NCBI GenBank assembly: GCA_000002445.1
Contig: AL929603.2
Span: forward strand, 160,001-224,000
Direction: 5' to 3'
Source: Trypanosoma brucei
Lineage: Eukaryota
Length of the DNA stretch: 64,000 bases
The position numbers and the translations under genes were made by a program. The notes beneath the pieces are model-generated. The model saw only the letters and a list, made by a program, of their open reading frames with translations, ran no database searches and was not told the DNA's origin. This document shows, piece by piece, positions 1 through 31,223 of the stretch. Position 1 is the stretch's first letter. Every line of letters starts with the position of its first letter.

Positions 1-346
1 GGTGAATGTCAGTCACACGCCTTATGACTTGTGCGACCCACTGCCTCGTCACGGTAATTTAGAGATTGCTGTGCTCACCTCGCAGAAGAGTTGGCCATAT
101 AACTCTTTCAGCATTCCGGAACATGCAATTCAAGAGGATGCGGAGGAACCAGGAGACTACGTGTTTGACCGGGATGTGTACGTTCGTCGAGAGGTAATGA
201 GAGTGTGGTATCTTGTGAAGCACAGGCTGGATTTGTGGCTGGAGTCAGAGCTGATCGAAAAACAGATTCCTTGCGTCCTCGTCGGCAGTGCAGGTATTGG
301 GAAATCAGTTGGTGCTGGCTATTATATTCGACTTACGCTGGTTTAG
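1..346 (+). pseudogene. RHS (retrotransposon hot spot) protein gene, N-terminal/central fragment ending just after the P-loop, interrupted by ingi copy 1; 5' end lies outside the window
   Basis: The frame 2-346 reads VSHTP..PLPRHGNLEIAVLTSQ...VGSAGIGKS. It aligns residue-for-residue with the RHS part of the minus-strand ORF 11858-14089 (VSHTPETMKEPLPRHGNLEIAVLTSQ...VGTPGIGKS). GxxGxGKS is the RHS P-loop that sits just upstream of the known ingi/RIME hot spot. A stop at 346 and ingi homology from about 424 make it a pseudogene. Confidence 0.7.
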
Positions 347-638
347 TGGTTATGTAGATTGGTCGTCGCAGATAGTACCGGAATCGATTCCCGCGGCCAG
401 CGAGTATTTAGCTTACACTAAGAATGAATCTGCCTCAACGTGGTGCCAGGGTCCGGTACCCCGTATCATCGGGGGAAGCCAAGAGCCAGCAGCGTTATTC
501 CCATAGGGAACACTGCTTTGCTCCGGCTACGGCATCATACAGCACAGGGATCAGCAGCGTCTTGCTGGGACACCGTTTTTCATTTGTCGGTCCCTGGGCA
601 CGTGCCAGCGTGCCATCAGCAGTATCATCCGCACTAAG

Positions 639-677
639 ATGCTGCTGTCCGGTGATGTGGAAGAGAATCCCGGCCCG
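639..677 (+). other. 2A-like co-translational 'skipping' peptide (MLLSGDVEENPGP) at the N-terminal region of ingi ORF1
   Basis: This is the canonical D(V/I)ExNPGP motif. It is known from T. cruzi L1Tc and T. brucei ingi. The same motif is on the minus strand at 12752-12790 (copy 2) and in the fragment at about 36840. In copy 3 (31449-31487) it is mutated to NPGS. Confidence 0.8.
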
Positions 678-1571
678 TCGTTGCGCGGGATGCAGTGGAA
701 CTGCGCCGGGCTATCTCAAGGAAAGAGATTAGCACTCCACAAAACCCTTGTTGATGAGCGGATCGCCTTTTGTCTGTTGAGCGAGACAAGGATGACGCCT
801 GGAGAGGCGGCTTGCTTTAGCGTTGCTGGTTACCAACATCGCGGAATAGCTCGTAACTGCAAAGGAGGTGGTGTATCAATACTAGTGAGGGAGGACCTAC
901 CAGTCGAGACCGGTATGGCCGTTGTTGGTCGCATTGAACAAGTGCATGCAACAATTCACCTTGCACGTGGAACGGCGCTGACTGTCACGTCGGCATACAT
1001 CCCACCAAAACACACCTTTACGGCAACTGACATAGATACGCTTCTGACAACTGACGGTGCCCAGCTCATCGGTGCAGACGCTAATGCACACGCGTTGGCA
1101 TGGGATCGCGCGAGCCCACCAAATACCAAGGGTGAAACCCTCACACAGTGGTGCATTGACAACCAGTTTCTGGTCTGCAACACTGGTGAGTGCACCAGGT
1201 ACGCGTGCCACCACGGGGAGTCCACCCCTGATGTGACACTGTCAAGGAATTGCACAGTGTACACGTGGACATCGCTGTATTCTCCCGATAGCGATCACCA
1301 TCACATATTTTTCGACGTTATCGTTGGAGACGACACAGATGCACTGAGTTGCCCGCGGCTTCGAAAGCCCATGTACGCATGGCTAAAAGCTAACTGGAGG
1401 AATTTCCGTCTCAAGGTTGACGAGCTCTGCAGGAAAATTGGTAGAGAGAAGAACGTCAACACCCTGGAACAGAAATTGAGCTCCGCCATCCGCATTGGAC
1501 ACCTGCGCTCGCGAAACTCGATGAAGAGATCGCTGGATGCGGACCCTCCCGCCGAAGGGAAAAGTTGGTAG
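639..1571 (+). CDS. ingi ORF1: 2A peptide + apurinic/apyrimidinic-type endonuclease domain
   Basis: 310-aa ORF with the APE-family C-terminal SDH signature (YSPDSDHHHIFFDV) and the GADANAHALAWD segment. It ends at a TAG at 1569-1571. The translation is identical across the three copies. Confidence 0.8.
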   Translation: MLLSGDVEENPGPSLRGMQWNCAGLSQGKRLALHKTLVDERIAFCLLSETRMTPGEAACFSVAGYQHRGIARNCKGGGVSILVREDLPVETGMAVVGRIEQVHATIHLARGTALTVTSAYIPPKHTFTATDIDTLLTTDGAQLIGADANAHALAWDRASPPNTKGETLTQWCIDNQFLVCNTGECTRYACHHGESTPDVTLSRNCTVYTWTSLYSPDSDHHHIFFDVIVGDDTDALSCPRLRKPMYAWLKANWRNFRLKVDELCRKIGREKNVNTLEQKLSSAIRIGHLRSRNSMKRSLDADPPAEGKSW

Positions 1572-4500
1572 CCACGCGTAAGCAGATCCTGGACCGTACC
1601 ACAAAGAAGAGATGGAGCACGCTATGCTCCAGACTTGCGGTGTCAGACCGCTGCAGTTGGCACATTGTCAAGAAGGTATATGCGCCACGACCACTAACCA
1701 CACCGGCTGTACTTGTAGATAACGCGGCCATCACGGACTACCGTCAAGCTGAGAGGTTCAGTAAACTGTACTCGTCCCGCGCAAGAAGGCACCCCGACTC
1801 ACACCCACCGGCACCAATAAAGACGATAGCGAGTGAGTTCAGTCCCATCACGATGGCTGAACTACGGAGATCGATCAAACTGCTACCGAGTGGATCCGCC
1901 GCCGGACCTGATTGCTTATACAACGAGGCACTACAACATCTCGGCAGAACAGCGCTGAATGTTGTTCTGTGGCTATTCAATGAGAGCCTACGAACGGGAG
2001 TCGTGCCGCCTGCATGGAAGACTGGTGTTATCATCCCCATCCTGAAGGCCGGAAAAAAGGCGGAGGACCTCGATTCTTACAGGCCAGTGACGCTCACGAG
2101 CTGTCTCTGCAAAGTCATGGAGCGCATAATTGCCGCGAGACTTAGAGACACTGTTGAGTCCCAGCTGACGCCGCAGCAATCAGGCTTTCGCCCCGGATGC
2201 TCAACGCTCGAACAACTCCTGCACGTCCGCGCTGCCCTCTGCCGTCCCACGCACCAATCTCGTACGGGTGCTGTATTCGTTGACTACGAGAAGGCATTCG
2301 ATACAGTAGACCACGACAAAATTGCGAGGGAAATGCACAGAATGAAGGTATCACCCCACATTGTGAAGTGGTGCGTATCATTTCTGAGTAACCGAACTGG
2401 CAGAGTGAGATTCAAGGAGAAGCTTTCCAGAAGCAGAACATTTGAGCGAGGAGTGCCACAAGGAACTGTCCTTGGCCCAATCATGTTCATTATTGTCATG
2501 AACTCGTTGAGCCAACGCCTTGCAGAAGTGCCGTTACTGCAGCACGGATTCTTTGCAGACGACCTAACGCTACTTGCGAGGCACACAGAAAGGGATGTCA
2601 TCAACCACACACTACAATGCGGCCTAAACGTGGTGTTACAGTGGTCAAAAGAGTACTTCATGTCTGTCAACGTAGCGAAAACAAAGTGCACACTCTTCGG
2701 GTGTATAGAGCGCCACCCCCTTACATTACAACTGGAAGGCGAAAGAATAGGAGCTGACAGGACACCGAAGCTTCTAGGAGTAACATTCCAGTGTCTGCAG
2801 GGGATGGCAACACATGCGGCCGAAACGAGACGCAAGATGGACTTCCGACTACTGCAGATAGCGGCCATCTCAGCTTCTACATGGAGGCCAAGACGACAAG
2901 TACTGAGAGCTTTTTATCTAGCACTCGTACAGGCACACACCATGTATGGCATTGAGGTATGGTACTGGGACGCTTCGGAACGAAGTCGCGACCTCCTTGC
3001 ATCAGCACAACACAAAGCCAGTCGCATCATAGCCGGCATACCGCATGGGACGCGCAAAGAGGACTCTCTGCTGGAAGCAAACCTCCTGCCACTCAAGACG
3101 ACCACTCTTGTGCGCAGCATGAAATTCATGCTGATGTGTGAGTCACGAGGCGGATGTTTGCGGCGCAGTGCTGAAGAAGTATACCACAGCAAACACCCAG
3201 TCAGAGTCTTACATTCCCGCATCATGCGGTCCTACCCCCACCTCCGCATTGAGCCACGCGAGCACCCACTAGAGACATCGACGCTCCGCCACAGCTGCCG
3301 ACCGATATTTCACACGCAGATAAAGCCTGTGTGCGCTGATGACCCTGACGATGTCAAAAGGGAGGCTTCCGAAAAGTGGATTGAACGACATTTTGCACGG
3401 AGGGGGAAGGAGCCACCGCGGCGAGAGCACTACGAATTGTGGACTGATGGATCCGTGTCCCTCGGTGAGAAGACCGGGGCAGCTGCCCTGCTCTATAGAA
3501 ACAACACGCTGATTTGCGCACCCAAAACTGGAGCAGGGGAACTCTCATGCAGTTACAGAGCGGAATGCGTAGCATTAGAGATAGGACTGCAACGGCTGCT
3601 GAAATGGCTTCCGGCATACAGAAGCACACCGAGCAGGTTGTCCATCTTCTCTGACTCGCTGTCAATGTTAACAGCACTGCAGACAGGCCCCCTAGCCGTA
3701 ACGGACCCAATTCTGAGACGACTATGGAGGCTTCTGCTTCAAGTTCAGAGAAGGAAGGTGCGTATCCGACTGCAATTTGTGTTTGGCCATTGTGGCGTGA
3801 AACGGAATGAGGTTTGCGATGAAATGGCCAAAAAGGCCGCAGATTTACCACAGTTGCGAGACACATGGATCCCCGACATCATTGCTTATGCGAAGCGAGT
3901 GCTTAGGTCGGAAGAAGTCCATGAGAACACTCATAGGTTTGGTATCACGGGCAACCACTTTCCAACAAAACATAAGGAAGAACTGACGAGGGAAGAAGAA
4001 ACGGCACTGGCACGCTTTCGGGTTGGGTCTTCAAGACACTATGGATGGATGTTGCGAAAGATCAACCCGAGTGTGCCTCCACAGTGTCGATGGTGTAACC
4101 CGCAACATGCAGCGATAGGGCCAACAATACAAACACAAAAGGCCCCAATTGTTGCGACACGCACTCTTCAGAGAACCTCCGAACCGACCAAATGTACGGA
4201 ATGTGATGCCACATACCAATGCCGCTCGAGTGCTGTAACGCATATGGTAAACAAACACGGCTTTGTGCGAGCTGATGCCCTCCGGAGGATAAAATACGGC
4301 GATGCAACACCTGCAGTGGATATCCCCCCGGAGCCCCCTCCAGTGGTGGCGATCGTTCCTCTACCATCGAGCACACGAGTCCCGATAAGACCACAGGTGC
4401 TTCATTGTACCCTCTGTGCCTCCAAATTCGCAGTGCCAGGGCGACTATTACACCACCTTAGAACAATACATGGCATAGGCAGCGGCAGTTGCCGCGTGAA

Positions 4501-5353
4501 AAGGGGGCGAGAGAACGAGGACTCAGTGCAAGGAGATGGTAAAGCCCCAGCAGCGCCAGCCTCTCAGGATACACGGAAGCTGCCGTTTCAATGTGACCTG
4601 TGCGAGGCGAGCTTCGGTACACGCTCTTCCCTGTCACTACACAAGAAATTCAAACATAAAAGCATAGTGACTGAGGACGGTGCCGTGGTGGTGGTGCAAT
4701 TCCCTCGTAAGCGTGCCCGTGAGGGAAACGTTGACGTCCCGGGGAAAGGCGAGGTGCAGTGCGGTGTGTGCCAAAAAGTGCTCAGTTGCAGGGACTCCCT
4801 CATCCGACACTGTAAGGCTTTCCACAAAGGTGAGGTAGTCGAGCTTAAATGCAGCAAAAGCACAAAATTGTGTGCCACTGATTCCCCCCATACAAACACA
4901 TCCATGTTGGTGTGCCCGACATGCGGAAGGCAGTGTGCTAGCAAAACTGGCCTCACCCTACATCAAAAGAAGATGCACGGTATGAAGGTAGAGCGCGCTG
5001 TTACCAGCCAACGCGGCGACTGCGAAGAAACGTCGCTGCACTTGATGAGCTGTCCCGGTTTGAAGAAGTTACGTGTCAGGTTTGCGGTAGAAGGTGAGTG
5101 TGTGCAGGATGTATGTTTCTCCAAAAGGCTGGCGCAGTTTCTCATTGCGGTTGAACGGAGCCGGCCGCAGGTGAAGTCCTCACCTAAGGTAACAGTCATA
5201 CAACCCACTCTTCCTTCTGCAACTTCCCCCCTTATTGCCGAGTGTGGAGCTAGCAGGAAAAGCACCGGACGCAGGAATAGTCCAGACACCCTCAGAGACA
5301 GAGGAGGTATGCTGTCAACAAGCAACAGAAACAGAAAGAGGGGGAGAGAATAA
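1565..5353 (+). CDS. ingi ORF2: reverse transcriptase / RNase H / C2H2 zinc-finger protein
   Basis: 1262 aa. Reverse transcriptase motifs are present (PQGTVLGP, GFFADDLTLL as the YXDD-box variant FADD). The RNase H region includes YELWTDGS. There are five C-terminal C2H2 fingers (CTECDATYQC..H..H, HCTLCASKF..H..H, FQCDLCEASF..H..H, CGVCQKV..H..H, CPTCGRQC..H..H). The first codon listed is TTG. The real start is undetermined, and the frame is -1 relative to ORF1. Confidence 0.85.
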   Translation: MVATRKQILDRTTKKRWSTLCSRLAVSDRCSWHIVKKVYAPRPLTTPAVLVDNAAITDYRQAERFSKLYSSRARRHPDSHPPAPIKTIASEFSPITMAELRRSIKLLPSGSAAGPDCLYNEALQHLGRTALNVVLWLFNESLRTGVVPPAWKTGVIIPILKAGKKAEDLDSYRPVTLTSCLCKVMERIIAARLRDTVESQLTPQQSGFRPGCSTLEQLLHVRAALCRPTHQSRTGAVFVDYEKAFDTVDHDKIAREMHRMKVSPHIVKWCVSFLSNRTGRVRFKEKLSRSRTFERGVPQGTVLGPIMFIIVMNSLSQRLAEVPLLQHGFFADDLTLLARHTERDVINHTLQCGLNVVLQWSKEYFMSVNVAKTKCTLFGCIERHPLTLQLEGERIGADRTPKLLGVTFQCLQGMATHAAETRRKMDFRLLQIAAISASTWRPRRQVLRAFYLALVQAHTMYGIEVWYWDASERSRDLLASAQHKASRIIAGIPHGTRKEDSLLEANLLPLKTTTLVRSMKFMLMCESRGGCLRRSAEEVYHSKHPVRVLHSRIMRSYPHLRIEPREHPLETSTLRHSCRPIFHTQIKPVCADDPDDVKREASEKWIERHFARRGKEPPRREHYELWTDGSVSLGEKTGAAALLYRNNTLICAPKTGAGELSCSYRAECVALEIGLQRLLKWLPAYRSTPSRLSIFSDSLSMLTALQTGPLAVTDPILRRLWRLLLQVQRRKVRIRLQFVFGHCGVKRNEVCDEMAKKAADLPQLRDTWIPDIIAYAKRVLRSEEVHENTHRFGITGNHFPTKHKEELTREEETALARFRVGSSRHYGWMLRKINPSVPPQCRWCNPQHAAIGPTIQTQKAPIVATRTLQRTSEPTKCTECDATYQCRSSAVTHMVNKHGFVRADALRRIKYGDATPAVDIPPEPPPVVAIVPLPSSTRVPIRPQVLHCTLCASKFAVPGRLLHHLRTIHGIGSGSCRVKRGRENEDSVQGDGKAPAAPASQDTRKLPFQCDLCEASFGTRSSLSLHKKFKHKSIVTEDGAVVVVQFPRKRAREGNVDVPGKGEVQCGVCQKVLSCRDSLIRHCKAFHKGEVVELKCSKSTKLCATDSPHTNTSMLVCPTCGRQCASKTGLTLHQKKMHGMKVERAVTSQRGDCEETSLHLMSCPGLKKLRVRFAVEGECVQDVCFSKRLAQFLIAVERSRPQVKSSPKVTVIQPTLPSATSPLIAECGASRKSTGRRNSPDTLRDRGGMLSTSNRNRKRGRE

Positions 5354-5625
5354 TAAACGAATAACAAAAATCAAAACAAAAGGATTGCTAATTGACATCT
5401 TTGGGAGAGTCCAGGGTGGGAGGCTTCTCGCCCCATCTGCTGTATTCCGTTCATATGCGGAAATACAACAAAAATTATAGAGGGTGTGTTAGGATGAATG
5501 AAAAAGGGAGACTCTGCCACAGTCGCCAGACCGATAGCATCTCAGGGCTCTACGGTGATGGCTGATGGCCGCGCCAGTGAGGGGAAACTCCCACGAAGGC
5601 ACGAAGAAAATTCTAAAAAAAAAAA

Positions 5626-6308
5626 TTCTCCTTCACAAACTAAAGCATGATGCCAGAGTATTGCCTGTTACCGCATATTTTATAGGAGTTCATGCATGCA
5701 TATATATATATATATATATGTCTGTGTTGTATCTTGGAACGTTGCGCCCATATGGCAAATGGATTGGAAGACTGCTGCTGCATAAATTCATCAACCTTGG
5801 TCGCATCTATCGTACAGGAGATTCCGAAACGTATGTGTGCACGCTGCACTTTGAATCCGCATTGAGGGTGGTAACTTTCCAGTCGCGCAGAGACGTTGCA
5901 CGACAACATTGTGTGAGGAGAGTCACTCATATACAGATCAGTTTTGTCTTGTGTTTTGAAGGTGATGCCGCAAGTGCTTTCGATTTTCCCAGGGTATTAT
6001 TTCCTTTTATTGACATGATAGGGTCATTGCCCGCAACCGCGGAGTGGAAACAGGAAACGATGCAGGATGTCAGCGTGTTGAACCGCCTGAGCGATATTTT
6101 CCTGAACTTCGGTAAAGCACAGCGCCTTCCAAATATCCATGAGGGAACAATCAACTCTCCACACACCATGCAACTTTACGGGTTCCCACCCATTTTCCCA
6201 CTATTTGATACCTTGTTTGTTGTGGATTGCGACACAACCACCGAAGTTGAAAATCAACGAAAAATAAACGGTGGTGATGTTGCAATTCCAAACTGCTGGA
6301 TCACATGA
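5626..6308 (+). pseudogene. possible decayed downstream continuation of the RHS gene interrupted by ingi copy 1
   Basis: Directly after the poly(A), the 12 nt ttctccttcaca (LLLH-type hot-spot sequence) is followed by an open frame of 247 codons. That frame contains a (TA)10 microsatellite (5700-5719) and has no recognisable domain. It sits where the 3' half of an interrupted RHS is expected. Homology is not demonstrable by eye. Confidence 0.25.
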
Positions 6309-7275
6309 TAACAAAACAGGAACAGCCCTTAATATGCTCGAGAATCCTGTCCTTCTAACATGTGATGCGAATAGGGATATGTTTTTGAGAAATTTTATGA
6401 ATGAATTTGGGTGGGGAGTTATTTGTGCTCAGCATGTTGCCGTCAGAAAGATGAGACGCCAACAATTGTGCAACGATACAGCGGGCAAATGAAGTGAGGA
6501 AGATCGCAAATATGTTCATTTATTTTGGGCCAACAGTATGAAACATTACCTTGTGCAATTTAATGTTAATACCGTCGCTATGTTAGCTATTGAAAATATT
6601 GCGGGGAGGGGAAGTAACCGACATGGATGTAAATCATGAAAGAGCGGCTGTGGGAAATCAATAAAAGAGAGGAAGGAGAAGAGTAAACGGGGAAAACATC
6701 AACAAAAGAGTGTGGAAACAAATAATCACGGCAGGTGATGTCACGGTATAACTCTGTGTTAGGAGGGTTGTGGACTCTATCAAAATTAACCTCTCGGCAG
6801 TAAGCACAGTTAACAACGAGCGTATGATCCCTTTTTAAAATTTGGTTACTTTAATTCGTTTTTTTTATTACTTAACGATGTTAACATTAGATACGATATG
6901 CATTTTTTGTAGAAGCACATATGTGTTAATGAAAACATTGCAACATTGTTTACATCAGATATTAATACTTAGCTGCCTAACCGTAATTTCCTACAGAGCG
7001 TGTCGTTTACGGTTTTCATTTCTACCAGATGGATGTCACATATTGTGTTTAATATTTTACACTGAGTGATGTGCCCGAAATATTTTTTTTTCTTAATCGT
7101 CGACGCCCCTTTCACCTTTTCATGTATTCTCCTAATTTTTCTCTACCATTTGTTACATAAGGTGCGCACAGATACGATTGTATGAAGGTTTCTGTGCAAG
7201 AAGCCGAGGTGTCCAGTTCACTATTTATTTGATGGAAAGTCATTATTTTGAGTGTGCGATTCGTTGTACATTCAC

Positions 7276-7786
7276 TTTTTTTTTTTTTAAAAGTTGTCTT
7301 CGTGCCTTCGTGGGAGTTTCCCCTCACTGGCGCGGCCATCAGCCATCACCGTAGAGCCCTGAGATGCTATCGGTCTGGCGACTGTGGCAGAGTCTCCCTT
7401 TTTCATTCATCCTAACACACCCTCTATAATTTTTGTTGTATTTCCGCATATGAACGGAATACAGCAGATGGGGCGAGAAGCCTCCCACCCTGGACTCTCC
7501 CAAAGATGCCAATTGGCAATCCTTTTTTTTTCGGAGGTCCACATCACCGGACAGCAGCATCTTAGTGCGGATGATATACTGCTGATGGCACGCTGGCACG
7601 TGCCCAGTGACAGAAAAATGAAAAACGGTGTCCCAGCAAGACGCTGCTGATCCCTGTGCTGTATGATGCCGTAGCCGGAGCACAGCAGTGTTCCCCATGA
7701 AAGGAACGCTGCTGGCTCTTGGCTTCCCCCGATGATACGGGGTACTGGACCCTGGCACCACGTTGAGGTGGCCGGCATCGCCAGGG
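7276..7786 (-). mobile_element. RIME (ribosomal mobile element, ~511 bp): 5' ~255 bp + 3' ~245 bp of ingi, complete, poly(T) 7276-7288 on + strand
   Basis: The span 7289-7530 is the reverse complement of the ingi 3' terminus seen at 5380-5614. The span 7535-7786 is the reverse complement of the ingi 5' terminus, ending ...cctggcaccacgttgaggtggccggcatcgccaggg. The internal deletion joint falls inside the 2A coding motif (LLSGDV|DLRKK). Confidence 0.85.
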
Positions 7787-7798
7787 TGTATAACAAAA
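7787..7798. repeat. 12-nt target-site duplication tgtataacaaaa (left copy) of ingi copy 2, shared with the adjacent RIME
   Basis: An identical 12-mer lies at 13015-13026 immediately outside the ingi 5' end. On the minus strand it encodes the F-L-L-Y-T hot-spot residues of RHS. Confidence 0.8.
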
Positions 7799-8081
7799 TT
7801 TTTTTTTTTTTTTTAGAATTTTCTTCGTGCCTTCGTGAGAGTTTCTCCCAACTGGCGCGGCCATCAGCCATCACCGTAGAGCCCTGAGATGCTATCGGTC
7901 TGGCGACTGTGGCAGAGTCTCCCTTTTTCATTCATCCTAACACACACACTCTCTATAATTTTTGTTGTAGCTCCGCAGTTGAACGGAATACAGCAGATGG
8001 GGCGAGAAGCCCCCCTCACCCCGGACTCTCCCAAAGATGTCAATTAGCAATCCTTTTGTTTTGATTTTTGTTATTCGTTTA

Positions 8082-11000
8082 TTATTCTCTTCTCCTCTTT
8101 CTGTTTCTGTTGCTTGTTGATTGCATACCCCCTCTGTCTCTAAGGGTGTCTGGACTATTCCTGCGTCCGATGCTTTTCCTGCTAGCTCCACATTCGGCAA
8201 TAAGGGGGGAAGTTGCAGAAGGGAGAGTGGGTTGTATGACTGTTACCTTAGGTGAGGACTTCACCTGCGGCCGGCTCCGTTCAACCGCAATGAGAAACTG
8301 CGCCAGCCTTTTGGAGAAACATACATCCTGCACACACTCACCTTCTACCGCAAACCTGACACGTAACTCCTTCAAACCGGGACAGCTCATCAAGTGCAGC
8401 GACGTTTCTTCGCAGTCGCCGCGTTGGCTGGTAACAGCGCGCTCTACCTTCATACCGTGCATCTTCTTTTGATGTAGGGTGAGGCCAGTTTTGCTAGCAC
8501 ACTGCCTTCCGCATGTCGGGCACACCAACATGGATGTGTTTGTATGCGGGGAATCAGTGGCACACAATTTTGTGCTTTTGCTGCATTTAAGCTCGACTAC
8601 CTCACCTTTGTGGAAAGCCTTACAGTGTCGGATGAGGGAGTCCCTGCAACTGAGCACTTTTTGGCACACACCGCACTGCACCTCGCCCTTCCCCGGGACG
8701 TCAACGTTTCCCTCACGGGCACGCTTACGAGGGAATTGCACCAACACCACGGTACCGTCCTCCGTCACTATGCTTTTATGTTTGAATTTCTTGTGTAGTG
8801 TCAGGGAAGAACGTGTACCGAAGCTCGCCTCGCACAGGTCACATTGAAACGGCAGCTTCCGTGTATCCTGAGAGGCTGGCGCTGCTGGGGCTTTACCATC
8901 TCCTTGCACTGAGTCCTCGTTCTCTCGCCCCCTTTTCACGCGGCAACTGCCGCTGCCTATGCCATGTATTGTTCTAAGGTGGTGTAGTAGTCTGCCTGGC
9001 ACTGCGAATTTGGAGGCACAGATGGTACAATGAAGCACCTGCGGTCTCATCGGGACTCGTGTGCTCGATGGTAGGGGAACGATCGCCACCACTGGAGGGG
9101 GCTCCGGGGGGATATCCACTGCAGGTGTTGCATCGCCGTATTTGATCCTCCGGAGGGCATCAGCTCGCACAAAGCCATGTTTGTTTACCATATGCGTTGC
9201 AGCACTCGAGCGGCATTGGTATGTGGCATCACATTCCGTACATTTGGTCGGTTCGGAGGTTCTTTGAAGAGTGCGTGTCGCAACAGTTGGGGCCGTTTGT
9301 ATTGTTGGCCCTATCTCTGCATGTTGCGGGTTGCACCATCGGCACTGTGGAGGCACACTCGGGTTGATCTTTCGCAACATCCATCCATAGTGCCTTGAAG
9401 ACCCAACCCGAAAGCGTGCCAGTGCCGTTTCTTCTTCCCTCGTCAGTTCTTCCTTATGTTTTGTTGGAAAGTGGTTGCCCGTGATACCAAACCTATGAGT
9501 GTTCTCATGGACTTCTTCCGACCTAAGCACTCGCTTCGCATAAGCAATGATGTCGGGGATCCATGTGTCTCGCAACTGTGGTAAATCTGCGGCCTTTTTG
9601 GCCATGTCATCGCAAACCTCATTCCGTTTCACGCCACAATGGCCAAACACAAATTGCAGTCGGATACGTATCTTCCTTCTCTGAACTTGAAGCAGAAGCC
9701 TCCATAGTCGTCTTAGAATTGGGTCCGTTACGGCTAGGGGGCCTGTCTGCAGTGCTGTTAACATTGACAGCGAGTCAGAGAAGATGGATAACCTGCTCGG
9801 TGTGGTTCTGTATGCCGGAAGCCATTTCAGCAGCCGTTGCAGTCCTATCTCTAATGCTACGCATTCCGCTCTGTAACTGCATGAGAGTTCCCCTGCTCCT
9901 GTCTTAGGTGCGCAAATCAGCGTGTTGTTTCTGTAGAGCAGGGCAGCTGCTCCGGACTTCTCACCGAGGGACACGGATCCATCAGTCCACAATTCGTAGT
10001 GCTCTCGCCGCGGTGGCTCCTTCCCCCTCCGTGCAAAATGCCGTTCAATCCACTTTTCGGAAGCCTCCCTTTTGACATCGTCAGGGTCATCAGCGCACAC
10101 AGGCTTTATCTGCGTGTGAAATATCGGTCGGCAGCTGTGGCGGAGCGTCGATGTCTCTAGTGGGTGCTCGCGTGGCTCAATGCGGAGGTGGGGGTAGGAC
10201 CGCATGATACGGGAATGTAGGGCTCTGACTGGGTGTTTGCTGTGGTATACTTCTTCAGCACTGCGCCGCAAACATCCGCCTCGTGACTCACACATCAGCA
10301 TGAATTTCATGCTGCGCACAAGAGTGGTCGTCTTGAGTGGCAGGAGGTTTGCTTCCAGCAGAGAGTCCTCTTTGCGCGTCCCATGCGGTATGCCGGCTAT
10401 GATGCGACTGGCTTTGTGTTGTGCTGATGCAAGGAGGTCGCGACTTCGTTCCGAAGCGTCCCAGTACCATACCTCAATGCCATACATGGTGTGTGCCTGT
10501 ACGAGTGCTAGATAAAAAGCTCTCAGTACTTGTCGTCTTGGCCCCCATGTAGAAGCTGAGATGGCTGCTATCTGCAGTAGTCGGAAGTCCATCTTGCGTC
10601 TCGTTTCGGCCGCATGTGTTGCCATCCCCTGCAGACACTGGAATGTTACTCCTAGAAGCTTCGGTGTCCTGTCAGCTCCTATTCTTTCACCGTCCAGTTG
10701 TAATGTAAGGGGGTGGCGCTCTATACACCCGAAGAGTGTGCACTTTGTTTTCGCTACGTTGACAGACATGAAGTACTCTTTTGACCACTGTAACACCACG
10801 TTTAGACCGCACTGTAGTGCGTGGTTGATGACATCCCTCTCTGTGTGCCTCGCAAGTAGCGTTAGGTCGTCTGCAAAGAATCCGTGCTGCAGTAACGGCA
10901 CCTCTGCAAGGCGTTGGCTCAACGAGTTCATGACAATAATGAACATGATTGGGCCAAGGACAGTTCCTTGTGGCACTCCTCGCTCAAATGTTCTGCTTCT

Positions 11001-11864
11001 GGAAAGCTTCTCCTTGAATCTCACTCTGCCAGTTCGGTTACTCAGAAATGATACGCACCACTTCACAATGTGGGGTGATACCTTCATTCTGTGCATTTCC
11101 CTCGCAATTTTGTCGTGGTCTACTGTATCAAATGCCTTCTCGTAGTCAACGAATACAGCACCCGTACGATATTGGTGCGTGGGACGGCAGAGGGCAGCGC
11201 GGACGTGCAGGAGTTGTTCGAGCGTTGAGCATCCGGGGCGAAAGCCTGATTGCTGCGGCGTCAGCTGGGACTCAACAGTGTCTCTAAGTCTCGCGGCAAT
11301 TATGCGCTCCATGACTTTGCAGAGACAGCTCGTGAGCGTCACAGGCCTGTAAGAATCGAGGTCCTCCGCCTTTTTTCCGGCCTTCAGGATGGGGATGATA
11401 ACACCAGTCTTCCATGCAGGCGGCACGACTCCCGTTCGTAGGCTCTCATTGAATAGCCTCAGAACAACATTCAGCGCTGTTCTACAGAGATGTTGCAGTG
11501 CCTCGTTGTATAAGCAATCAGGTCCGGCTGCGGATCCACTCGGTAGCAGTTTGATCGATCTCCGTAGTTCAGCCATCGTGATGGGACTGAACTCACTCGC
11601 TATCGTCTTTATTGGTGCCGGTGGGTGTGAGTCGGGGTGCCTTCTTGCGCGGGACGAGTACAGTTTACTGAACCTCTCAGCTTGACAGTAGTCCGTGATG
11701 GCCGCGTTATCAACAAGTACAGCCGGTGTGGTTAGTGGTCGTGGCGCATATACCTTCTTGACAATGTGCCAACTGCAGCGGTCTGACACCGCAAGTCTGG
11801 AGCATAGCGTGCTCCATCTCTTCTTTGTGGTACGGTCCAGGATCTGCTTACGCGTGGCTACCAA
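8082..11864 (-). CDS. ingi ORF2 (RT/RNase H/zinc finger), copy 2
   Basis: 1260 aa, more than 98% identical to copy 1 ORF2 by eye. It has the same FADD, WTDGS and C2H2 motifs. Confidence 0.85.
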   Translation of the reverse strand: MVATRKQILDRTTKKRWSTLCSRLAVSDRCSWHIVKKVYAPRPLTTPAVLVDNAAITDYCQAERFSKLYSSRARRHPDSHPPAPIKTIASEFSPITMAELRRSIKLLPSGSAAGPDCLYNEALQHLCRTALNVVLRLFNESLRTGVVPPAWKTGVIIPILKAGKKAEDLDSYRPVTLTSCLCKVMERIIAARLRDTVESQLTPQQSGFRPGCSTLEQLLHVRAALCRPTHQYRTGAVFVDYEKAFDTVDHDKIAREMHRMKVSPHIVKWCVSFLSNRTGRVRFKEKLSRSRTFERGVPQGTVLGPIMFIIVMNSLSQRLAEVPLLQHGFFADDLTLLARHTERDVINHALQCGLNVVLQWSKEYFMSVNVAKTKCTLFGCIERHPLTLQLDGERIGADRTPKLLGVTFQCLQGMATHAAETRRKMDFRLLQIAAISASTWGPRRQVLRAFYLALVQAHTMYGIEVWYWDASERSRDLLASAQHKASRIIAGIPHGTRKEDSLLEANLLPLKTTTLVRSMKFMLMCESRGGCLRRSAEEVYHSKHPVRALHSRIMRSYPHLRIEPREHPLETSTLRHSCRPIFHTQIKPVCADDPDDVKREASEKWIERHFARRGKEPPRREHYELWTDGSVSLGEKSGAAALLYRNNTLICAPKTGAGELSCSYRAECVALEIGLQRLLKWLPAYRTTPSRLSIFSDSLSMLTALQTGPLAVTDPILRRLWRLLLQVQRRKIRIRLQFVFGHCGVKRNEVCDDMAKKAADLPQLRDTWIPDIIAYAKRVLRSEEVHENTHRFGITGNHFPTKHKEELTREEETALARFRVGSSRHYGWMLRKINPSVPPQCRWCNPQHAEIGPTIQTAPTVATRTLQRTSEPTKCTECDATYQCRSSAATHMVNKHGFVRADALRRIKYGDATPAVDIPPEPPPVVAIVPLPSSTRVPMRPQVLHCTICASKFAVPGRLLHHLRTIHGIGSGSCRVKRGRENEDSVQGDGKAPAAPASQDTRKLPFQCDLCEASFGTRSSLTLHKKFKHKSIVTEDGTVVLVQFPRKRAREGNVDVPGKGEVQCGVCQKVLSCRDSLIRHCKAFHKGEVVELKCSKSTKLCATDSPHTNTSMLVCPTCGRQCASKTGLTLHQKKMHGMKVERAVTSQRGDCEETSLHLMSCPGLKELRVRFAVEGECVQDVCFSKRLAQFLIAVERSRPQVKSSPKVTVIQPTLPSATSPLIAECGASRKSIGRRNSPDTLRDRGGMQSTSNRNRKRRRE

Positions 11865-13006
11865 CTTTTCCCTTCGGCGGGAGGGTCCGCATCCAGCGAT
11901 CTCTTCATCGAGTTTCGCGAGCGCAGGTGTCCAATGCGGATGGCGGAGCTCAATTTCTGTTCCAGGGTGTTGACGTTCTTCTCTCTACCAATTTTCCTGC
12001 AGAGCTCGTCAACCTTGAGACGGAAATTCCTCCAGTTAGCTTTTAGCCATGCGTACATGGGCTTTCGAAGCCGCGGGCAACTCAGTGCATCTGTGTCGTC
12101 TCCAACGATAACGTCGAAAAATATGTGATGGTGATCGCTATCGGGAGAATACAGCGATGTCCACGTGTACACTGTGCAATTCCTTGACAGTGTCACATCA
12201 GGGGTGGACTCCCCGTGGTGGCACGCGTACCTGGTGCACTCACCAGTGTTGCAGACCAGAAACTGGTTGTCAATGCACCACTGTGTGAGGGTTTCACCCT
12301 TGGTATTTGGTGGGCTCGCGCGATCCCATGCCAACGCGTGTGCGTTAGCGTCTGCACCGATGAGCTGGGCACCGTCAGTCGTCAGAAGCGTATCTAGGTC
12401 AGTTGCCGTGAAGGTGTGTTTTGGTGGGATGTATGCCGACGTGACAGTCAGCGCCGTTCCACGTGCAAGGTGAATTGTTGCATGCACTTGTTCAATGCGA
12501 CCAATAACGGCCATACCGGTCTCGACTGGTAGGTCCTCCCTCACTAGTATTGATACACCACCTCCTTTGCAGTTACGAGCTATTCCGTGATGTTGGTAGC
12601 CAGCAACGCTAAAGCAAGCCGCCTCTCCAGGCGTCATCCTTGTCTCGCTCAACAGACAAAAGGCGATCCGCTCATCAACAAGGGTTTTGTGGAGTGCTAA
12701 TCTCTTTCCTTGAGATAGCCCGGCGCAGTTCCACTGCATCCCGCGCAACGACGGGCCGGGATTCTCTTCCACATCACCGGACAGCAGCATCTTAGTGCGG
12801 ATGATACTGCTGATGGCACGCTGGCACGTGCCCAGGGACCGACAAATGAAAAACGGTGTCCCAGCAAGACGCTGCTGATCCCTGTGCTGTATGATGCCGT
12901 AGCCGGAGCACAGCAGTGTTCCCCATGAAAGGAACGCTGCTGGCTCTTGGCTTCCCCCGATGATACGGGGTACTGGACCCTGGCACCACGTTGAGGTGGC
13001 CGGCAT
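11858..13006 (-). CDS. ingi ORF1 (2A + endonuclease), copy 2, open from the element's first ATG and fused in frame to upstream RHS codons
   Basis: The frame is continuous from MPATSTWCQGPVPRIIGG... through IIRTKMLLSGDVEENPGP into the endonuclease domain and ends at TAG. It is part of the single ORF 11858-14089. Confidence 0.8.
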   Translation of the reverse strand: MPATSTWCQGPVPRIIGGSQEPAAFLSWGTLLCSGYGIIQHRDQQRLAGTPFFICRSLGTCQRAISSIIRTKMLLSGDVEENPGPSLRGMQWNCAGLSQGKRLALHKTLVDERIAFCLLSETRMTPGEAACFSVAGYQHHGIARNCKGGGVSILVREDLPVETGMAVIGRIEQVHATIHLARGTALTVTSAYIPPKHTFTATDLDTLLTTDGAQLIGADANAHALAWDRASPPNTKGETLTQWCIDNQFLVCNTGECTRYACHHGESTPDVTLSRNCTVYTWTSLYSPDSDHHHIFFDVIVGDDTDALSCPRLRKPMYAWLKANWRNFRLKVDELCRKIGREKNVNTLEQKLSSAIRIGHLRSRNSMKRSLDADPPAEGKSW

Positions 13007-13014
13007 CGCCAGGG

Positions 13015-13026
13015 TGTATAACAAAA
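13015..13026. repeat. 12-nt target-site duplication tgtataacaaaa (right copy) of ingi copy 2
   Basis: It is identical to 7787-7798. It lies between the ingi 5' end and the RHS codons ...GSFLLYT. Confidence 0.8.
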
Positions 13027-14089
13027 AGGATCCCACGGAAAACGATTTACCAATACCAGGTGTACCAACAAGAACATTGGATGCCCGGTCGATATTCAGC
13101 TTGCCCATAAGCCACTGGTTAAGCCGTTCCTCAACCTTATGCCACACCCTCAGTGCTTCCCTACGGATATAAACGTCATCGTTAAAAACGTGATCCACTC
13201 CCTTCTTGTGATTAATATCATAATCCACTATGTCCGACAGGAAAAACGTGCACGGCCAACCCATTTGAGATGTAAGCACAGCAATCTCCAAGTTACCGTG
13301 ACGGGGAAGTGGTTCCTTCATAGTTTCCGGAGTGTGACTGACATCAACCTCCTCCTTCGTCCACATGTGCGGTGGCCTTCCATCGAACACTTTCATGCCA
13401 AGTCGCTCTGTATTATAACCCGACATCACATAACTCCATTTTGCATTATATATGGAATCATAAACATCTGGGAGTTCGGCACCACCGGCTGTTTGGGCAG
13501 CTCTCTCCCATACTTCCTTGGCGACCTCCAGTGCTCCATCCAACCTTCCCCTCGCCACGGGACCAACAAATTCCCTTATTTCCACTGTCCCCCTCCTTTC
13601 CCACTGCCGGAGATAGTAAATTTCCTTTTCGTCAAGGTAGTCTACCTTCTCAGACAGATCAATAGCTGTCTTCACTGTTTTAAACTCATTAGTGCCTTGT
13701 ATATCCTCAAGAATCTCGGCATCAACAATATATCTTCTGGGATTCTTAACAAAAATAGGCATCCTAACATTTTCTGCCTCAGCCACCGCAAAAGTCCCGC
13801 CAACGAACTCCTGAATAAAGTCGTTCACTGTCATTTTACGCAAACCCTCATACCGTTGCAGCAGCGCATCTTCCAGCAGCACATCCCTCACCTTACTATT
13901 CATTGTCCAATTGGGCCCCCCTTCATTTCCCTGGCGGATTTGTGGAGGCTGAGCAGCAGCAGCAGGAGGAGGAGGAGGCGGCGGTACATTTTCATCCCGT
14001 GGCCTCCTCATGGGCCCTTCAAAATTATCTGCCACTTGTTGATTTTCATTATTTCCTTGTGGAGCTGCGGGACTATTTGCTCTTGACAT
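13015..14089 (-). pseudogene. RHS protein gene, N-terminal ~358 codons (Pro/Ala-rich N-terminus, P-loop GTPGIGKS), interrupted at the hot spot by ingi copy 2 and reading in frame into it
   Basis: Sequence MSRANSPAAP...PPPPPPPAAAAQPP...VSHTPETMKEPLPRHGNLEIAVLTSQ...LVGTPGIGKSFSVGSFLLYTL, followed immediately by the ingi 5' end. The minus strand carries a GGA/GGC/GCA triplet-repeat-encoded Pro/Ala tract at about 13930-13990. Confidence 0.75.
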
Positions 14090-17000: not shown

Positions 17001-20000
17001 ATCTCCTTAACATAATCATTCTAATATTTAGTATGTCTGTGTGTGTGTGTGTAGTGATGATGAAATGTAATCGGCAGTCCCTTGACTCGGAATGCGGTAT
17101 TAACATGTCTCAGATGTTAAGCACTGTTGCACTACAAAGGATGTCATTCGCCTTTTTTTTTCCTTTTTGCGCAAACAAAAAATAAAAAGAAGAATACAGG
17201 GGTTTTAGCGGATAACTAGCTTTTTGAATCGTAGGAATATATTATGAAGCTTGTACCGTAGTCTACTCAGTGTTTTTTTATTTTTTATTTTTTGACTTCT
17301 TCTGATTCTATCTATTTTTATCCATGTTTATAAATGATACTTTTTGTGAAAGTTATAACAAGAAACCAATCCGTATTTCCTGTCAATGTCCTCGTCAGTG
17401 CTAAATTTTCGCCATGGTGCCGCGGCAAAACAACTTTCTTATTTCATTGAGCAGTTATGCTTGCAGAAGAAAACAGGATGAAAATAATCAAGACCTCACC
17501 AACAGGGTCCAGACATCCTTCAAAAAAGAACGAACAAAGAAGTTAACCACACAACCCTTCTTACAAATGAGCGTCTGTCAATGTGCAAGAAAAAACAATG
17601 GCTCTTCGACTGCATGCAACACTAGAAACGATATCAGCGGCTTCAATCCCACAGTTAAAGTCACTTGACGAAACACTCCGCACATGAGACCTTTGCAAAG
17701 CAATGTATTTGCTATTTAAAAAGAAAACGCATTCCTTCACGTGCCGTTTCAACAAACTGCTAGCCTAGAACTAAGAGTATCAACACACACACAGGTGATA
17801 TCTACGCGTCGAATATTTGCTGCCCAGCTGACTCCAAACTCACAAAGAGGAAACCAGACGTAACCACTTACAGCCCAGCCGCTAGTGTCATTTAAGTACA
17901 TACAAATACACAACAGCAATCATTGTCACCCCACTAACTTTAGGTGCCGTTAAAAGCACATTTAACAAACGTGATGCCCGACTCCAATTGTGAAAGTCAC
18001 TTGTCACGCACCCGCCCCGCCCCCATCCCCACCAATTCTACAGGATGGTGGAAACGAAGCGGCAAAGGAGGAGCGGTGCGGCGCTGTTAAAATAGAGCAG
18101 CTGCGCATCAGTCGCGTTGATTTTGTGGAATGCGGAGAAACCACCAGTTGAGTTTCGAGAGAGGGATGCCTCCCACGGAGCCGTGACGGCAGAATATGAT
18201 GTAGACGTCGCGATTCTTTTTTTTTTTTTGTTTTGCTGCAACCCCCCGAAATGCGTTGAAACGCAAAGAACTACCGCCACCCCCAAAGCAAAAACGTTGG
18301 GGAGAAAAAGCGGAACAATGTGTGGGTTGTGGCGCTGAAACCGCAATTACCAACTGGCGGGGTGGATGGACCGCGACATGTGAGCGGGCAAGGGGAGGCA
18401 TCGCTGTTTGTGGAATGTGGGGAAATGTAAGAAAAGAGACCACTAAATATGATAACGATGTCAGAGCAGCGAATATGAGAAGCGTCCAATTCCGTTTAGA
18501 AACCCTGTCCGGAATTTCTGTCCGTAAAACAACAACTGGCAGCGCCAACGAATTAGGGACAGAGGGCTGCGGGGTGTGAGCAAAGAAGGAAACAACAATG
18601 GGCCACAACCACACCGAATCAGAAAGTCCACATAAAAGTAACCAAATACTCGCAGCTCAAACGCTCAAATGTTGGATACGCAGAAGGTGACACGACGGAA
18701 GGAATATTATCCAGCGCTTAGAAGCATGTCACCACCGCAACGACTCCTCAGAAACTGGACAGCTTCAAGTGTGGAGTGGCGGCTTACATATGAACGCAGT
18801 GAATGTCAAAGAAGGGGTGAAAGGCACAGCGGGAGGAATGGCAAAGCAAAAAAGGCAGGGGGGCGGTGCCAAGACTCCCGAGCAGCCATCCGCTAAAACC
18901 TACGGCATATGACATGTGTGGTATGGCCATCGCAGCGCAGGAGGAACTGTTGCAACGAATCAGACGTGACTGTTATGGGCCCGTCACTGCCTTCAGAGAC
19001 TTTTTCAAACTCAAGGAAAGAGCGGAATGCGACAGAGTGATGCTGACGTGTGCAGAAGTCTGAAGGCATTATATCAGCGAGGTCTGTGGTGACTAAAAGC
19101 CTGAGTTGGATGCATGGTTAGAAGAGTGGTGGATCCTGCGAATAGTTGAAAGTAGGGTGCCTGTACTTTATTTCTCATATACTCGTATGCTCCGTATACA
19201 AAATATAAATGAGAAATGGATCTCACAAACACGCCAGAGAAGTGGATGTGTTTCTTTGCAATGTCCAGACAATTCGCACTAAGACTCTTAAAGCTACTGG
19301 ACCGAAGGAACCTCACGACCGTGTGCAGCTGGCAAACGTGCGAAAATGGAGAGCTGGCCGGCATCTCACCCTCTACTCAGCAGTTGCTCCCAACTGGAAT
19401 ATCGGGGATTATGGATGGTGTGTAAAGCTCACCGTTTCGTGGATTCTTCTGAATAGCAATGGAATCTGAAGGTTAACTCAAAGAATTAAAATGTTGAACA
19501 GACCTGGTGACCCACGTGGTCTTTTTTGTGTAAAAAATGCCGGACTGCCTTACTGCATCCCTTCGCGTGCATGCAAACTGAGCACAACGCAATGTCTCCT
19601 TTATTATTTGAAGCATGAAAGCTCATGGATCATAGCCATGTGACAGAACGCCTTGATTACGTTAGACTGATAGGACCGCTGTGTATTTTTGTCGTTTATG
19701 TTGGGATGTGCATTTGATAGTAGCATCTGTTAATGTACAATCATTCTAGTGGATTCGGCACATTACAGTGATTTCTGTTGAGAGTTCCTTTCCCCCCTCA
19801 CTCCGAGTAGATGTGGGGTAACTGGTTTCCTTTCTGACGCTAACATGGTTTGCCAGCTCTGTTTGGCAAAGTTACGGTATCATCACGCACAGTTTCGCAA
19901 ATTGTCCGTAAAGCTGTTTTGAATCCATGTTGCGGTTGTCACGAATCAGAAAAATTATAACGGAGACGGGTCTGCAATAAGGCATTGTGAGTAAGCGGCA

Positions 20001-29000: not shown

Positions 29001-29532
29001 TTTCATGGCGCATCATTATCGAGTTTTTTGTTATGAACCCATAATTAATCATGAGACAGGTTTGTACGAGTCATACTCCCTGCATAAATGCAATGCACTG
29101 AAGGAATGTAATTTTATTTATTTATTTATTACTACCATTATTATTGTCAGTATTAATATTCAGGTTTTCATCCATCACTATTTTATTATTTATATTTTCT
29201 TTCCAACATCTGTTTCAAGAAACATGGTCGATTGGAAATAATGTAAACATCAATGGTTAGAGAAACTTTGATTTGCTTTGACCGTGCAGATGCACACAGT
29301 TCAAAAGGTTTCAGAAAGGTGATGGGGAAGTTTAACCATATTTTTTATTACTGAATTATTTCTATAAAATGCTTTTTTTCTTTTGTATTGCACTTACATT
29401 CAAAACCAATTGGCCAGCGCTTTGAAGGCAGTCAAGTGGCGTATGGAAATATTTGCGTATTGGCGTTTTTTTAACGTGTGATGATTACGTTCCTAACGGT
29501 GATGGAAAAAAGTAACATATGAATGTGTGTTC

Positions 29533-30840: not shown

Positions 30841-31223
30841 ATGGACAACGAAACTCAAATGCTGGGCATGAAGTTTGTTGATGGAACGCGTGCTGATGAT
30901 ATAATGTGGAAAGATGAAGAAGTTAATGTCGTCCCCAAAATTGAGGAAGCTGTTGAGCATAAGCCGGAACGCACGGGAAGAAGTTGAAGCAATGGTTCCA
31001 ACATCTCAAATGGAGTGGTCGTACTCACAGTTTAATATTTAAATTCACAATGACATTCTCATTCAGAGAAAGGACTGGAGACTGTGAAATGTTGTGGAAA
31101 GAAGGCTCTGCGCTTGGCCAGCTGAGGAAACTCGAATACTAAGACACGCACCAAATCCTTACATTGTGATTGGAAACTCCAGAATCAGTAAGTCACTGGC
31201 CACCGGCTCACTTCTCCTTCACA
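30841..31223 (+). pseudogene. short degenerate RHS remnant ending at the hot spot (…ISKSLATGSLLLHTL) immediately 5' of ingi copy 3
   Basis: The last about 25 codons before the ingi 5' end read VIGNSRISKSLATGSLLLHTL. This is homologous to LVGTPGIGKSFSVGSFLLYTL of the RHS at 13015-14089. The upstream frame is broken. Confidence 0.4.

What the first reader, a model, noticed from the sequence alone, without database searches (positions are those of the whole stretch)
7264..13026. Stacked RIME + ingi at one RHS hot spot sharing the 12-nt duplication tgtataacaaaa
The order on the + strand is RIME(-) 7276-7786, tgtataacaaaa 7787-7798, ingi(-) 7799-13014, tgtataacaaaa 13015-26, then RHS. The ingi therefore has perfect 12-nt target-site duplications, and one of them is also the outer flank of the RIME. 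The simplest history is that one insertion regenerated the hot-spot target (on the minus strand it encodes FLLYT of RHS) and a second element then re-used it, giving a tandem pile-up. The far RIME flank (ttgtacattcac, 7264-7275) is only loosely similar. Either that side is older or diverged, or the RIME arrived by recombination rather than retroposition.
Basis: seen in the sequence. Interest (0 to 1): 0.5.

Follow-up and report, generated by a model that had tools for sequence, protein, structure and literature searches.

The report
Two retroposons stacked in RHS hot spot
A trypanosome RHS pseudogene was hit twice at its known retroelement hot spot, by a RIME and by an ingi; this is a textbook arrangement and the only irregular part is a swapped downstream flank.

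Summary
On the minus strand the order is: RHS 5' half (14089-13027), TTTTGTTATACA, ingi (13014-7799), TTTTGTTATACA, RIME (7786-7276), then unrelated sequence. The 12-mer occurs exactly twice in 64 kb.

This is the classic Trypanosoma brucei RHS pseudogene. Tandem ingi/RIME pairs separated only by the 12-bp target-site duplication are described in the literature as frequent, and are explained by repeated use of one target. The endonuclease recognition sequence is reported to lie upstream of the duplication. On that basis the ingi next to the RHS half is most likely the later arrival.

The RIME's far flank matches the 12-mer at 3 of 12 positions, which is chance level. Decay cannot explain this. 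The RHS 3' half is absent from the whole window.

The best reading is a later exchange or deletion through the RIME's 3' half. Supporting this, another 12-mer (TTCTCCTTCACA) is split between the 3' flank of one ingi and the 5' flank of another, 25.6 kb apart.

The ingi carries a 49-bp frame-breaking deletion, so it was probably mobilised in trans.

Already known; low interest.

The parts
13027..14089 (-). RHS pseudogene 5' half (called psi2 here), ending at the retroelement hot spot just after the P-loop GTPGIGKS.
   Evidence: Pfam RHS_N 8.5e-69, DUF7578 1.8e-19, RHSP positions 1-20. It is 53-69% identical to annotated T. brucei RHS proteins.
13015..13026 (-). Outer copy of the 12-nt target-site duplication TTTTGTTATACA. 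It encodes (F)LLY(T).
7799..13014 (-). Full-length ingi (ingiB), 5216 nt, with a 16-nt poly(A) at 7799-7814. It is not autonomous.
   Evidence: 98.0-98.7% identical over 5.2 kb to two other ingi copies in the window. Pfam finds Exo_endo_phos, RVT_1, RNase_H and zf-C2H2. A 49-bp deletion at ingi nt ~1078 splits the ORF.
11858..14089 (-). 743-aa open frame that fuses the RHS 5' half in frame to the ingi endonuclease region. It ends at the frame break.
8082..11864 (-). Second ingi open frame of 1260 aa carrying RT, RNase H and a zinc finger.
7787..7798 (-). Inner copy of the duplication. It is the only sequence between the ingi poly(A) and RIME nt 1.
7276..7786 (-). Full-length RIME, 511 nt, with a 13-nt poly(A) at 7276-7288. 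It consists of the ingi 5' ~250 nt joined to the ingi 3' ~250 nt.
   Evidence: The internal junction ...GTGGACCTCC... is shared with the RIME in T. b. gambiense locus L002, which is followed there by a shorter A run.
7264..7275 (-). Discordant 3' flank of the RIME (GTGAATGTACAA), at the place where a third copy of the duplication is expected.
   Evidence: 3 of 12 matches, which is chance level. There is no partner copy in the window. It is not RHS-like.
5638..7263 (.). AT-rich, ORF-poor spacer between the tails of ingiA(+) and the RIME(-). Its left end, on the + strand, is the decayed start of another RHS 3' half.
   Evidence: No Pfam hit in six frames. Weak + strand RHS matches were found (E=2e-4, p~0.013).
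5626..5637 (+). Context: TTCTCCTTCACA, the 3' flank of ingiA (433-5625, + strand).
31212..31223 (+). Context: the same TTCTCCTTCACA as the 5' flank of ingiC (31224-36434, + strand). It sits at the hot spot of a third, decayed RHS 5' half (30727-31223).

Best explanation
This is a Trypanosoma brucei-group RHS pseudogene whose conserved retroelement hot spot was used twice by target-primed reverse transcription.

1. **Cutting.** The ingi-encoded APE-type endonuclease nicks the two strands 12 nt apart, so every insertion is bracketed by a 12-nt duplication.
2. **Why the site can be re-used.** The recognition sequence is reported to lie upstream of the duplication, inside the RHS 5' half. An insertion therefore leaves 'recognition sequence plus 12-mer' intact on its 5' side.
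3. **Where the second insertion lands.** It goes between the RHS 5' half and the resident element, and it copies the same 12-mer again.
4. **Order.** The most likely order is RIME first, then the ingi. Both were mobilised in trans: the RIME is non-coding and this ingi has a frame-breaking 49-bp deletion.
5. **Later rearrangement.** Homologous exchange or deletion through the RIME's 3' half, with another ingi or RIME 3' end, replaced the third 12-mer copy and the RHS 3' half with unrelated DNA.

Shown here: the anatomy, the exact duplications, the absence of the third copy and of the RHS 3' half, and a swapped duplication elsewhere in the locus. Inferred: the order of insertion and the nature of the flank-replacing event.
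For: **The stack**
- The 12-mers are exact and occur only twice.
- Both elements have full-length 5' ends and poly(A) tails that abut the 12-mer with nothing else between.
- The RHS identity and the hot-spot position just after the P-loop are confirmed.
- ingiB has the endonuclease, RT, RNase H and zinc-finger domains.

**Canonical comparators**
- T. b. gambiense L002 has RHS 5' half, TACTGTTATACA, RIME, TTCTGTTATACA, RHS 3' half.
- T. equiperdum L003 has RHS 5' half, ingi, RHS 3' half.

**Literature**
- The TSD of Tbingi/TbRIME is 12 bp.
[quoted passage not shown] - RHS pseudogenes carry 'one or more retroelements' (PMC7563717).

**Order of insertion**
- The inner 12-mer is preceded by poly(A), not by RHS sequence.
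- In about 495 shared nt the RIME has 6 private changes and ingiB has one event.

**Flank replacement**
- The RIME 3' flank matches 3 of 12, and decay is excluded.
- No RHS 3' half exists anywhere in the window.
- TTCTCCTTCACA is split between the ingiA 3' flank and the ingiC 5' flank. Joining those two flanks reconstructs an in-frame RHS.
Against: - The order of insertion rests on a published model, not on an empty-site comparison. No orthologous locus from another strain could be retrieved.
- The 11-bp upstream consensus itself could not be read, because Bringaud 2002, 2004 and 2009 are not held. The RHS sequence upstream of the 12-mer was therefore not scored against it.
- The partner of the proposed exchange was not found in the window. 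That partner would be an element preceded by GTGAATGTACAA, or a poly(A) followed by TTTTGTTATACA and an RHS 3' half.
- The excess of private changes in the RIME is small (6 versus 1) and could have been inherited from its master copy.
Confidence: 0.75

Rival explanations
1. Reverse order. The ingi inserted first, and the RIME later inserted at the 3' copy of the ingi's duplication.
For: It gives the same final anatomy. The duplication is identical on both sides of the ingi either way.
Against: The inner 12-mer is preceded by 16 A and the ingi 3' end, not by the RHS sequence that precedes hot-spot insertions. The published model places the recognition motif upstream of the TSD (PMC3820030). The RIME carries more private changes than the ingi. 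This order also predicts a third 12-mer copy, so it explains nothing extra.
Confidence: 0.15
2. The tandem arose at the DNA level without a second retroposition. One route is unequal exchange or microhomology-mediated joining between an ingi-bearing and a RIME-bearing RHS pseudogene. Another is in-situ internal deletion of a second ingi.
For: The locus clearly has a history of inter-element exchange: a split TTCTCCTTCACA and an ingiA 3' end with the RIME haplotype. The RIME's 3' flank is discordant.
Against: The only homology that could join an ingi 3' flank to a RIME 5' flank is the 12-mer itself. The RIME has the family's canonical internal junction, shared with an unrelated T. b. gambiense RIME, so it was not made in place. 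The poly(A)/12-mer/nt-1 junction is exactly what retroposition predicts.
Confidence: 0.06
3. Assembly artefact. A false join was made inside the 261-nt repeat formed by the 12-mer plus the element 5' end, which is present at 7538-7798 and 12768-13026.
For: The two stretches are 98.1% identical. Repeat-rich RHS/ingi regions are hard to assemble (PMC2854126).
Against: The two 5' ends are distinguishable by 3 substitutions and a TA indel. A poly(A)/12-mer/CCCTGG junction must exist in real reads somewhere. The repeat is shorter than a Sanger read.
Confidence: 0.03

Closest known systems
T. brucei RHS pseudogenes carrying RIME and/or ingi at the conserved hot spot (Bringaud et al. 2002, Eukaryot Cell 1:137; paper not held, cited through PMC7563717 and from my own knowledge)
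   Same: The element is inserted in frame just downstream of the P-loop motif of an RHS gene, with a 12-nt duplication. More than one retroelement is possible at the site. The locus lies in the chromosome 1 RHS/LRRP/ingi region: the RPB2 neighbour is identical to T. b. gambiense chr 1, and an LRRP gene is present.
   Different: The canonical pseudogene has two RHS halves flanking the element(s), as in L002 and L003. Here the 3' half and the last duplication copy are missing.
Tandem autonomous/non-autonomous ingi-clade pairs separated only by a 12-bp TSD: Tbingi/TbRIME, Tvingi/TvSIDER1, L1Tc/NARTc (PMC3820030)
   Same: The architecture is identical (long element, 12 bp, short element). So is the proposed cause, repeated recognition of one target by the retrotransposition machinery.
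   Different: Nothing of substance. This is one more example.
L1Tc tandem clusters in T. cruzi, all flanked by the same TSD (PMC5814959)
   Same: Site re-use gives head-to-tail copies that share one duplicated target.
   Different: The species and element are different, and a 9-nt TSD was reported in that case.
ingi/RIME-mediated genome rearrangements (PMC2854126)
   Same: Element flanks that no longer match, implying homologous exchange between dispersed copies.
   Different: Those cases were defined by comparing subspecies. Here the event is inferred from discordant and split duplications within one sequence.

Membership tests
ingi (Tbingi, ingi/L1Tc clade non-LTR retroposon) | About 5.2 kb, with the two RIME halves at its ends, the conserved 5' signature starting CCCTGGCG..., and a poly(A) tail. 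| tested here: met
   5216 nt. The 5' 249 nt and 3' ~256 nt match the RIME. The poly(A) is 16 nt.
ingi (Tbingi, ingi/L1Tc clade non-LTR retroposon) | Encodes APE-type endonuclease, reverse transcriptase, RNase H and a zinc finger in one long ORF of 1657 aa in functional copies (PMC3447711). | tested here: inconclusive
   All the domains are present. The ORF is split by a 49-bp deletion shared with the two other ingi copies of the window and absent from two T. equiperdum copies. It is a member, but not an autonomous one.
ingi (Tbingi, ingi/L1Tc clade non-LTR retroposon) | Flanked by a 12-bp target-site duplication. | tested here: met
   12 of 12 identical, and not extendable.
ingi (Tbingi, ingi/L1Tc clade non-LTR retroposon) | Preceded by the Tbingi/TbRIME (ingi4) upstream consensus, taken to be the endonuclease site. 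| not testable with these tools
   The consensus is in papers or figures that are not held. Too few non-RHS junctions are available here to derive it.
RIME | About 500 nt, non-coding, made of the ingi 5' ~250 nt joined to the ingi 3' ~250 nt, with a poly(A) tail. | tested here: met
   511 nt. Halves are 96.8-98.4% identical to full-length ingi 5' ends (94.8% to the 5'-truncated ingiA) and 91-98% to ingi 3' ends. The internal junction is the same as in the L002 RIME.
RIME | Flanked by its own 12-bp target-site duplication. | tested here: not met
   The 5' flank is TTTTGTTATACA and the 3' flank is GTGAATGTACAA, with 3 of 12 matching. This is interpreted as secondary loss, not as evidence against membership.
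RHS pseudogene with retroelement at the hot spot | RHS N-terminal domains and P-loop immediately upstream of the element. | tested here: met
   Pfam RHS_N, DUF7578 and the start of RHSP. The junction is at the same position as in L002 and L003.
RHS pseudogene with retroelement at the hot spot | RHS 3' half resumes after the last element. | tested here: not met
   No tblastn match to residues beyond ~350 of full-length RHS proteins at E<=1e-3 anywhere in the window. At E up to 10 the spacer gives only weak + strand matches, best E=2e-4. No Pfam hit in six frames of the spacer.
Tandem retroposons by re-use of one target | Two complete elements, head to tail, separated only by the duplication that also flanks the pair. 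| tested here: inconclusive
   The inner and upstream copies are present and identical. The expected downstream (third) copy is absent.

The most novel reading that the evidence does not exclude
The stack is one visible piece of a larger ingi/RIME-driven rearrangement of this chromosome 1 RHS/LRRP/ingi region.

- The two halves of a different RHS pseudogene now lie 25.6 kb apart, on either side of the stack. They are joined only by a shared 12-mer on two different ingi copies.
- ingiA has a RIME-type 3' end.
- ingiC runs straight into an inverted ingi fragment.

Hot-spot stacks would then be the substrates on which this repeat region is built and reshuffled, and the RIME's orphan flank would be a breakpoint of such an event.
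Probability: 0.3. Interest if true: 0.3.

Novelty: already known. Interest (0 to 1): 0.12.

Why it matters
It matters little beyond annotation. The locus is a clean illustration of two established points:
- ingi-clade retroposons have relative site specificity, and their target survives insertion, so elements pile up at RHS hot spots.
- Dispersed ingi/RIME copies then serve as recombination substrates.

Its practical value is as a worked example for annotating RHS pseudogenes. A tandem pair should carry three copies of the duplication. A missing copy marks a rearrangement breakpoint rather than sequence decay.

Tried and rejected
- **RHS 3' half or third 12-mer near the RIME's far end.** None was found with up to 3 mismatches in the right orientation. 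There was no Pfam hit in six frames and no tblastn hit at E<=1e-3.
- **Apparent 'DGKS...LY' P-loop-like reading and a 9/12 reverse-complement 12-mer at 7259-7270.** I tested these against five RHS hot-spot regions with shuffles and they are chance level.
- **Partner for the RIME's 3' flank in the window.** None was found.
- **One-step histories.** I tried single inversions between ingiA, the RIME, ingiB and ingiC, an unequal crossover, and integration of a circle. No single event restores matching duplications on all elements, so at least two events are needed and I do not claim a specific history.
- **Cross-strain empty-site test.**
  - The RHS-ingi fusion ORF and the LRRP are not on record as exact proteins.
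  - TREU927 LRRP paralogues are not indexed.
  - The T. b. gambiense chr 1 record starts at about window position 39.7 kb.
  - T. equiperdum chr 1 gives only a 92-95% similar copy of window 18183-35995, which does not reach the stack.
- **Rfam scan of 7000-13300 for the 5' ribozyme/promoter signature.** No match.
- **Primary papers** (Bringaud 2002, Bringaud 2009, Hall 2003) are not held. Bringaud 2004 is not among the open-access library search hits and was not looked up by id.
Full report
**Observation**

TGTATAACAAAA is exact at 7787-7798 and 13015-13026, and nowhere else in the 64 kb. With one mismatch allowed there are 4 matches against 0.55 expected.

In the orientation of the elements (minus strand) the order is:
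- RHS 5' half, 14089-13027
- TTTTGTTATACA
- ingi, 13014-7799, with 16 A at 7814-7799
- TTTTGTTATACA
- RIME, 7786-7276, with 13 A at 7288-7276
- GTGAATGTACAA

Element ends were fixed by BLAST of the RIME against the window, by printing all junctions, and by alignments of the 5' and 3' ends. The duplication is exactly 12 nt. The preceding base is T before the outer copy and A before the inner copy.

**Identity of the parts**

*RHS half.* The upstream minus-strand frame matches Pfam RHS_N (8.5e-69), DUF7578 and the first 20 positions of the RHSP P-loop domain. It is 53-69% identical to annotated T. brucei RHS proteins. The insertion falls at ...GTPGIGKSFSVGSFLLY|, the same position as in two comparator loci fetched from public assemblies:
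- T. b. gambiense chr 11 (L002): RHS 5' half, TACTGTTATACA, RIME, TTCTGTTATACA, RHS 3' half.
- T. equiperdum (L003): RHS 5' half, ingi, RHS 3' half.

*ingi.* The long element is 98.0-98.7% identical over 5.2 kb to two other ingi copies in the window. It encodes endonuclease, reverse transcriptase, RNase H and zinc-finger domains. Its reading frame is broken. All three ingi copies in the window share a 49-bp deletion at element nt ~1078, which two T. equiperdum copies lack. Functional ingi have a single 1657-aa ORF (PMC3447711). This copy was therefore probably mobilised in trans, as RIMEs are. The RHS half is fused in frame to the ingi endonuclease region, giving a 743-aa open frame.

*Organism and locus.* The neighbours are an LRRP gene, RPB2 and duplicated phosphate transporters. 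The RPB2 product is identical to that of T. b. gambiense chromosome 1. This places the window at the edge of the chromosome 1 RHS/LRRP/ingi region of a T. brucei-group genome.

**How it most likely arose**

The literature is explicit on the relevant points:
- The TSD of Tbingi/TbRIME is 12 bp.
- The first-strand nick is at the 5' edge of the TSD.
[quoted passage not shown] - RHS pseudogenes carry 'one or more retroelements' (PMC7563717).

From this geometry it follows that an insertion preserves 'motif plus 12-mer' on its 5' side only. A second insertion therefore lands between the RHS half and the resident element. That makes the ingi the later arrival.

Two observations fit this order but do not prove it:
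- The inner 12-mer is preceded by poly(A) rather than by RHS sequence.
- In about 495 shared nt the RIME has six private changes and the ingi has one event.

**The irregular part**

Whichever element came second, a double hit should leave three copies of the 12-mer and then the RHS 3' half. Neither the third copy nor the 3' half is there.
- The RIME's 3' flank matches the 12-mer at 3 of 12 positions, the modal value for random 12-mers of this window.
- Decay is excluded. The chance of 9 or more changes in 12 is about 1e-13 at 2% divergence and 1.7e-7 even at 10%.
- No RHS sequence beyond the hot spot is detectable in the window at E<=1e-3 with full-length RHS queries. A relaxed search of the spacer gives only weak + strand matches, best E=2e-4.
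- Pfam finds nothing in the six frames of the 1.65-kb spacer.
- A P-loop-like reading on the opposite strand is chance.

I therefore infer that the RIME's 3' part was exchanged with, or deleted against, another ingi or RIME 3' end.

The same locus gives direct evidence that such events happened:
- TTCTCCTTCACA occurs exactly twice. One copy is the 3' flank of ingiA (5626-5637). The other is the 5' flank of ingiC (31212-31223), where it is the hot spot of a third, decayed RHS 5' half.
- Joining that 5' half to the ingiA 3' flank restores a continuous RHS-like frame (IVIGNSRISKSLATGSLLLH|KLKHDARVLPVTAYFIGV).
- The ingiA 3' flank aligns in register with the start of a genuine RHS 3' half (p about 0.013). 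The RIME's flank does not (p about 0.96).
- ingiA's last ~200 nt carry the haplotype of the two RIMEs rather than that of the other ingi copies.
- ingiC's poly(A) runs directly into an inverted 657-nt ingi 5' fragment.

I could not find a single event that restores concordant flanks for all elements, so I do not propose a specific history.

**Limits**

- No orthologous locus from another strain could be retrieved, so the order of insertion is not tested by an empty site.
- The upstream consensus could not be read, so the RHS motif was not scored.
- Assembly error is unlikely, because the two 5' ends are distinguishable and the repeat is only 261 nt. It was not tested.

**Verdict**

The tandem pile-up reading is right and is the published explanation. 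'Diverged flank' is wrong. 'Recombination' is right in spirit, but it most likely removed the RIME's original 3' flank and the RHS 3' half rather than delivering the RIME.

The structure is a further example of a well-described arrangement, so I score it as already known with low interest. The split duplication between two ingi copies 25.6 kb apart is the more informative detail in this window, although it too belongs to a known class of event.

Noticed in passing
window 5626-5637 and 31212-31223: The 12-mer TTCTCCTTCACA occurs exactly twice. One copy is the 3' flank of ingiA(+) and the other is the 5' flank of ingiC(+), 25.6 kb apart. Joining the two flanks reconstructs one RHS pseudogene in frame. 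This is a split target-site duplication and implies ingi-mediated exchange or segmental duplication.
   Followed up: partly
window 36434-37090: The poly(A) of ingiC abuts an inverted 657-nt ingi 5' fragment (nt 1-657, minus strand). That fragment is 99% identical to nt 19-657 of ingiA. ingiC therefore has no matching duplication either.
   Followed up: partly
window 2-432: A diverged RHS 5' fragment lies on the + strand (78% DNA identity to 13254-13344). It is followed by ingiA, whose first 18 nt are replaced by ACACTAAGAATGAATCTG.
   Followed up: partly
window ~1510 (ingiA), ~11937 (ingiB), ~32300 (ingiC): All three ingi copies share a 49-bp deletion at element nt ~1078 that splits the long ORF. 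Two T. equiperdum copies lack it, including the copy at the same RHS junction as ingiC. This is either a defective subfamily or local homogenisation by gene conversion.
   Followed up: partly
window 5420-5625: The last ~200 nt of ingiA carry the sequence variants of the two RIMEs examined, not those of ingiB, ingiC or a T. equiperdum ingi. This suggests an ingi/RIME chimera at its 3' end.
   Followed up: partly
window 433-5625 versus 7804-12996: ingiA(+) and ingiB(-) form a 5.2-kb inverted repeat (98% identical), tail to tail and about 2.2 kb apart. This is the kind of structure reported to yield siRNAs in T. brucei (PMC3447711).
   Followed up: no
window 11858-14089 (minus strand): The RHS 5' half reads in frame into the ingi endonuclease region, giving a 743-aa fusion ORF.
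   Followed up: partly
window 38086 (+ strand): A degenerate retroposon 5' signature, 80% identical to the RIME head (CCTTGGTGACGCCGG...). It is probably a DIRE/SIDER-type relic.
   Followed up: no
window 51882-54086 and 55589-57792: A 2.2-kb direct duplication (98% identical) carrying two phosphate-transporter (PHO4) genes.
   Followed up: no
window 63506-64000: 132-bp tandem repeats (96-99% identical). They encode the repeated N-terminal peptide of the 1056-aa ORF at 60727-63897 and continue past it to the end of the window.
   Followed up: no
L004/L005 (T. equiperdum CM010672.1, 65.5-89.8 kb) versus window 18183-35995: A 92-95% similar copy of the LRRP/decayed-RHS/ingi unit, with a 6.3-kb extra segment. 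The RHS-ingi junction is the same, but its 12-mer has lost one T (TTCTCCTCACA). The unit is repeated or highly polymorphic.
   Followed up: partly
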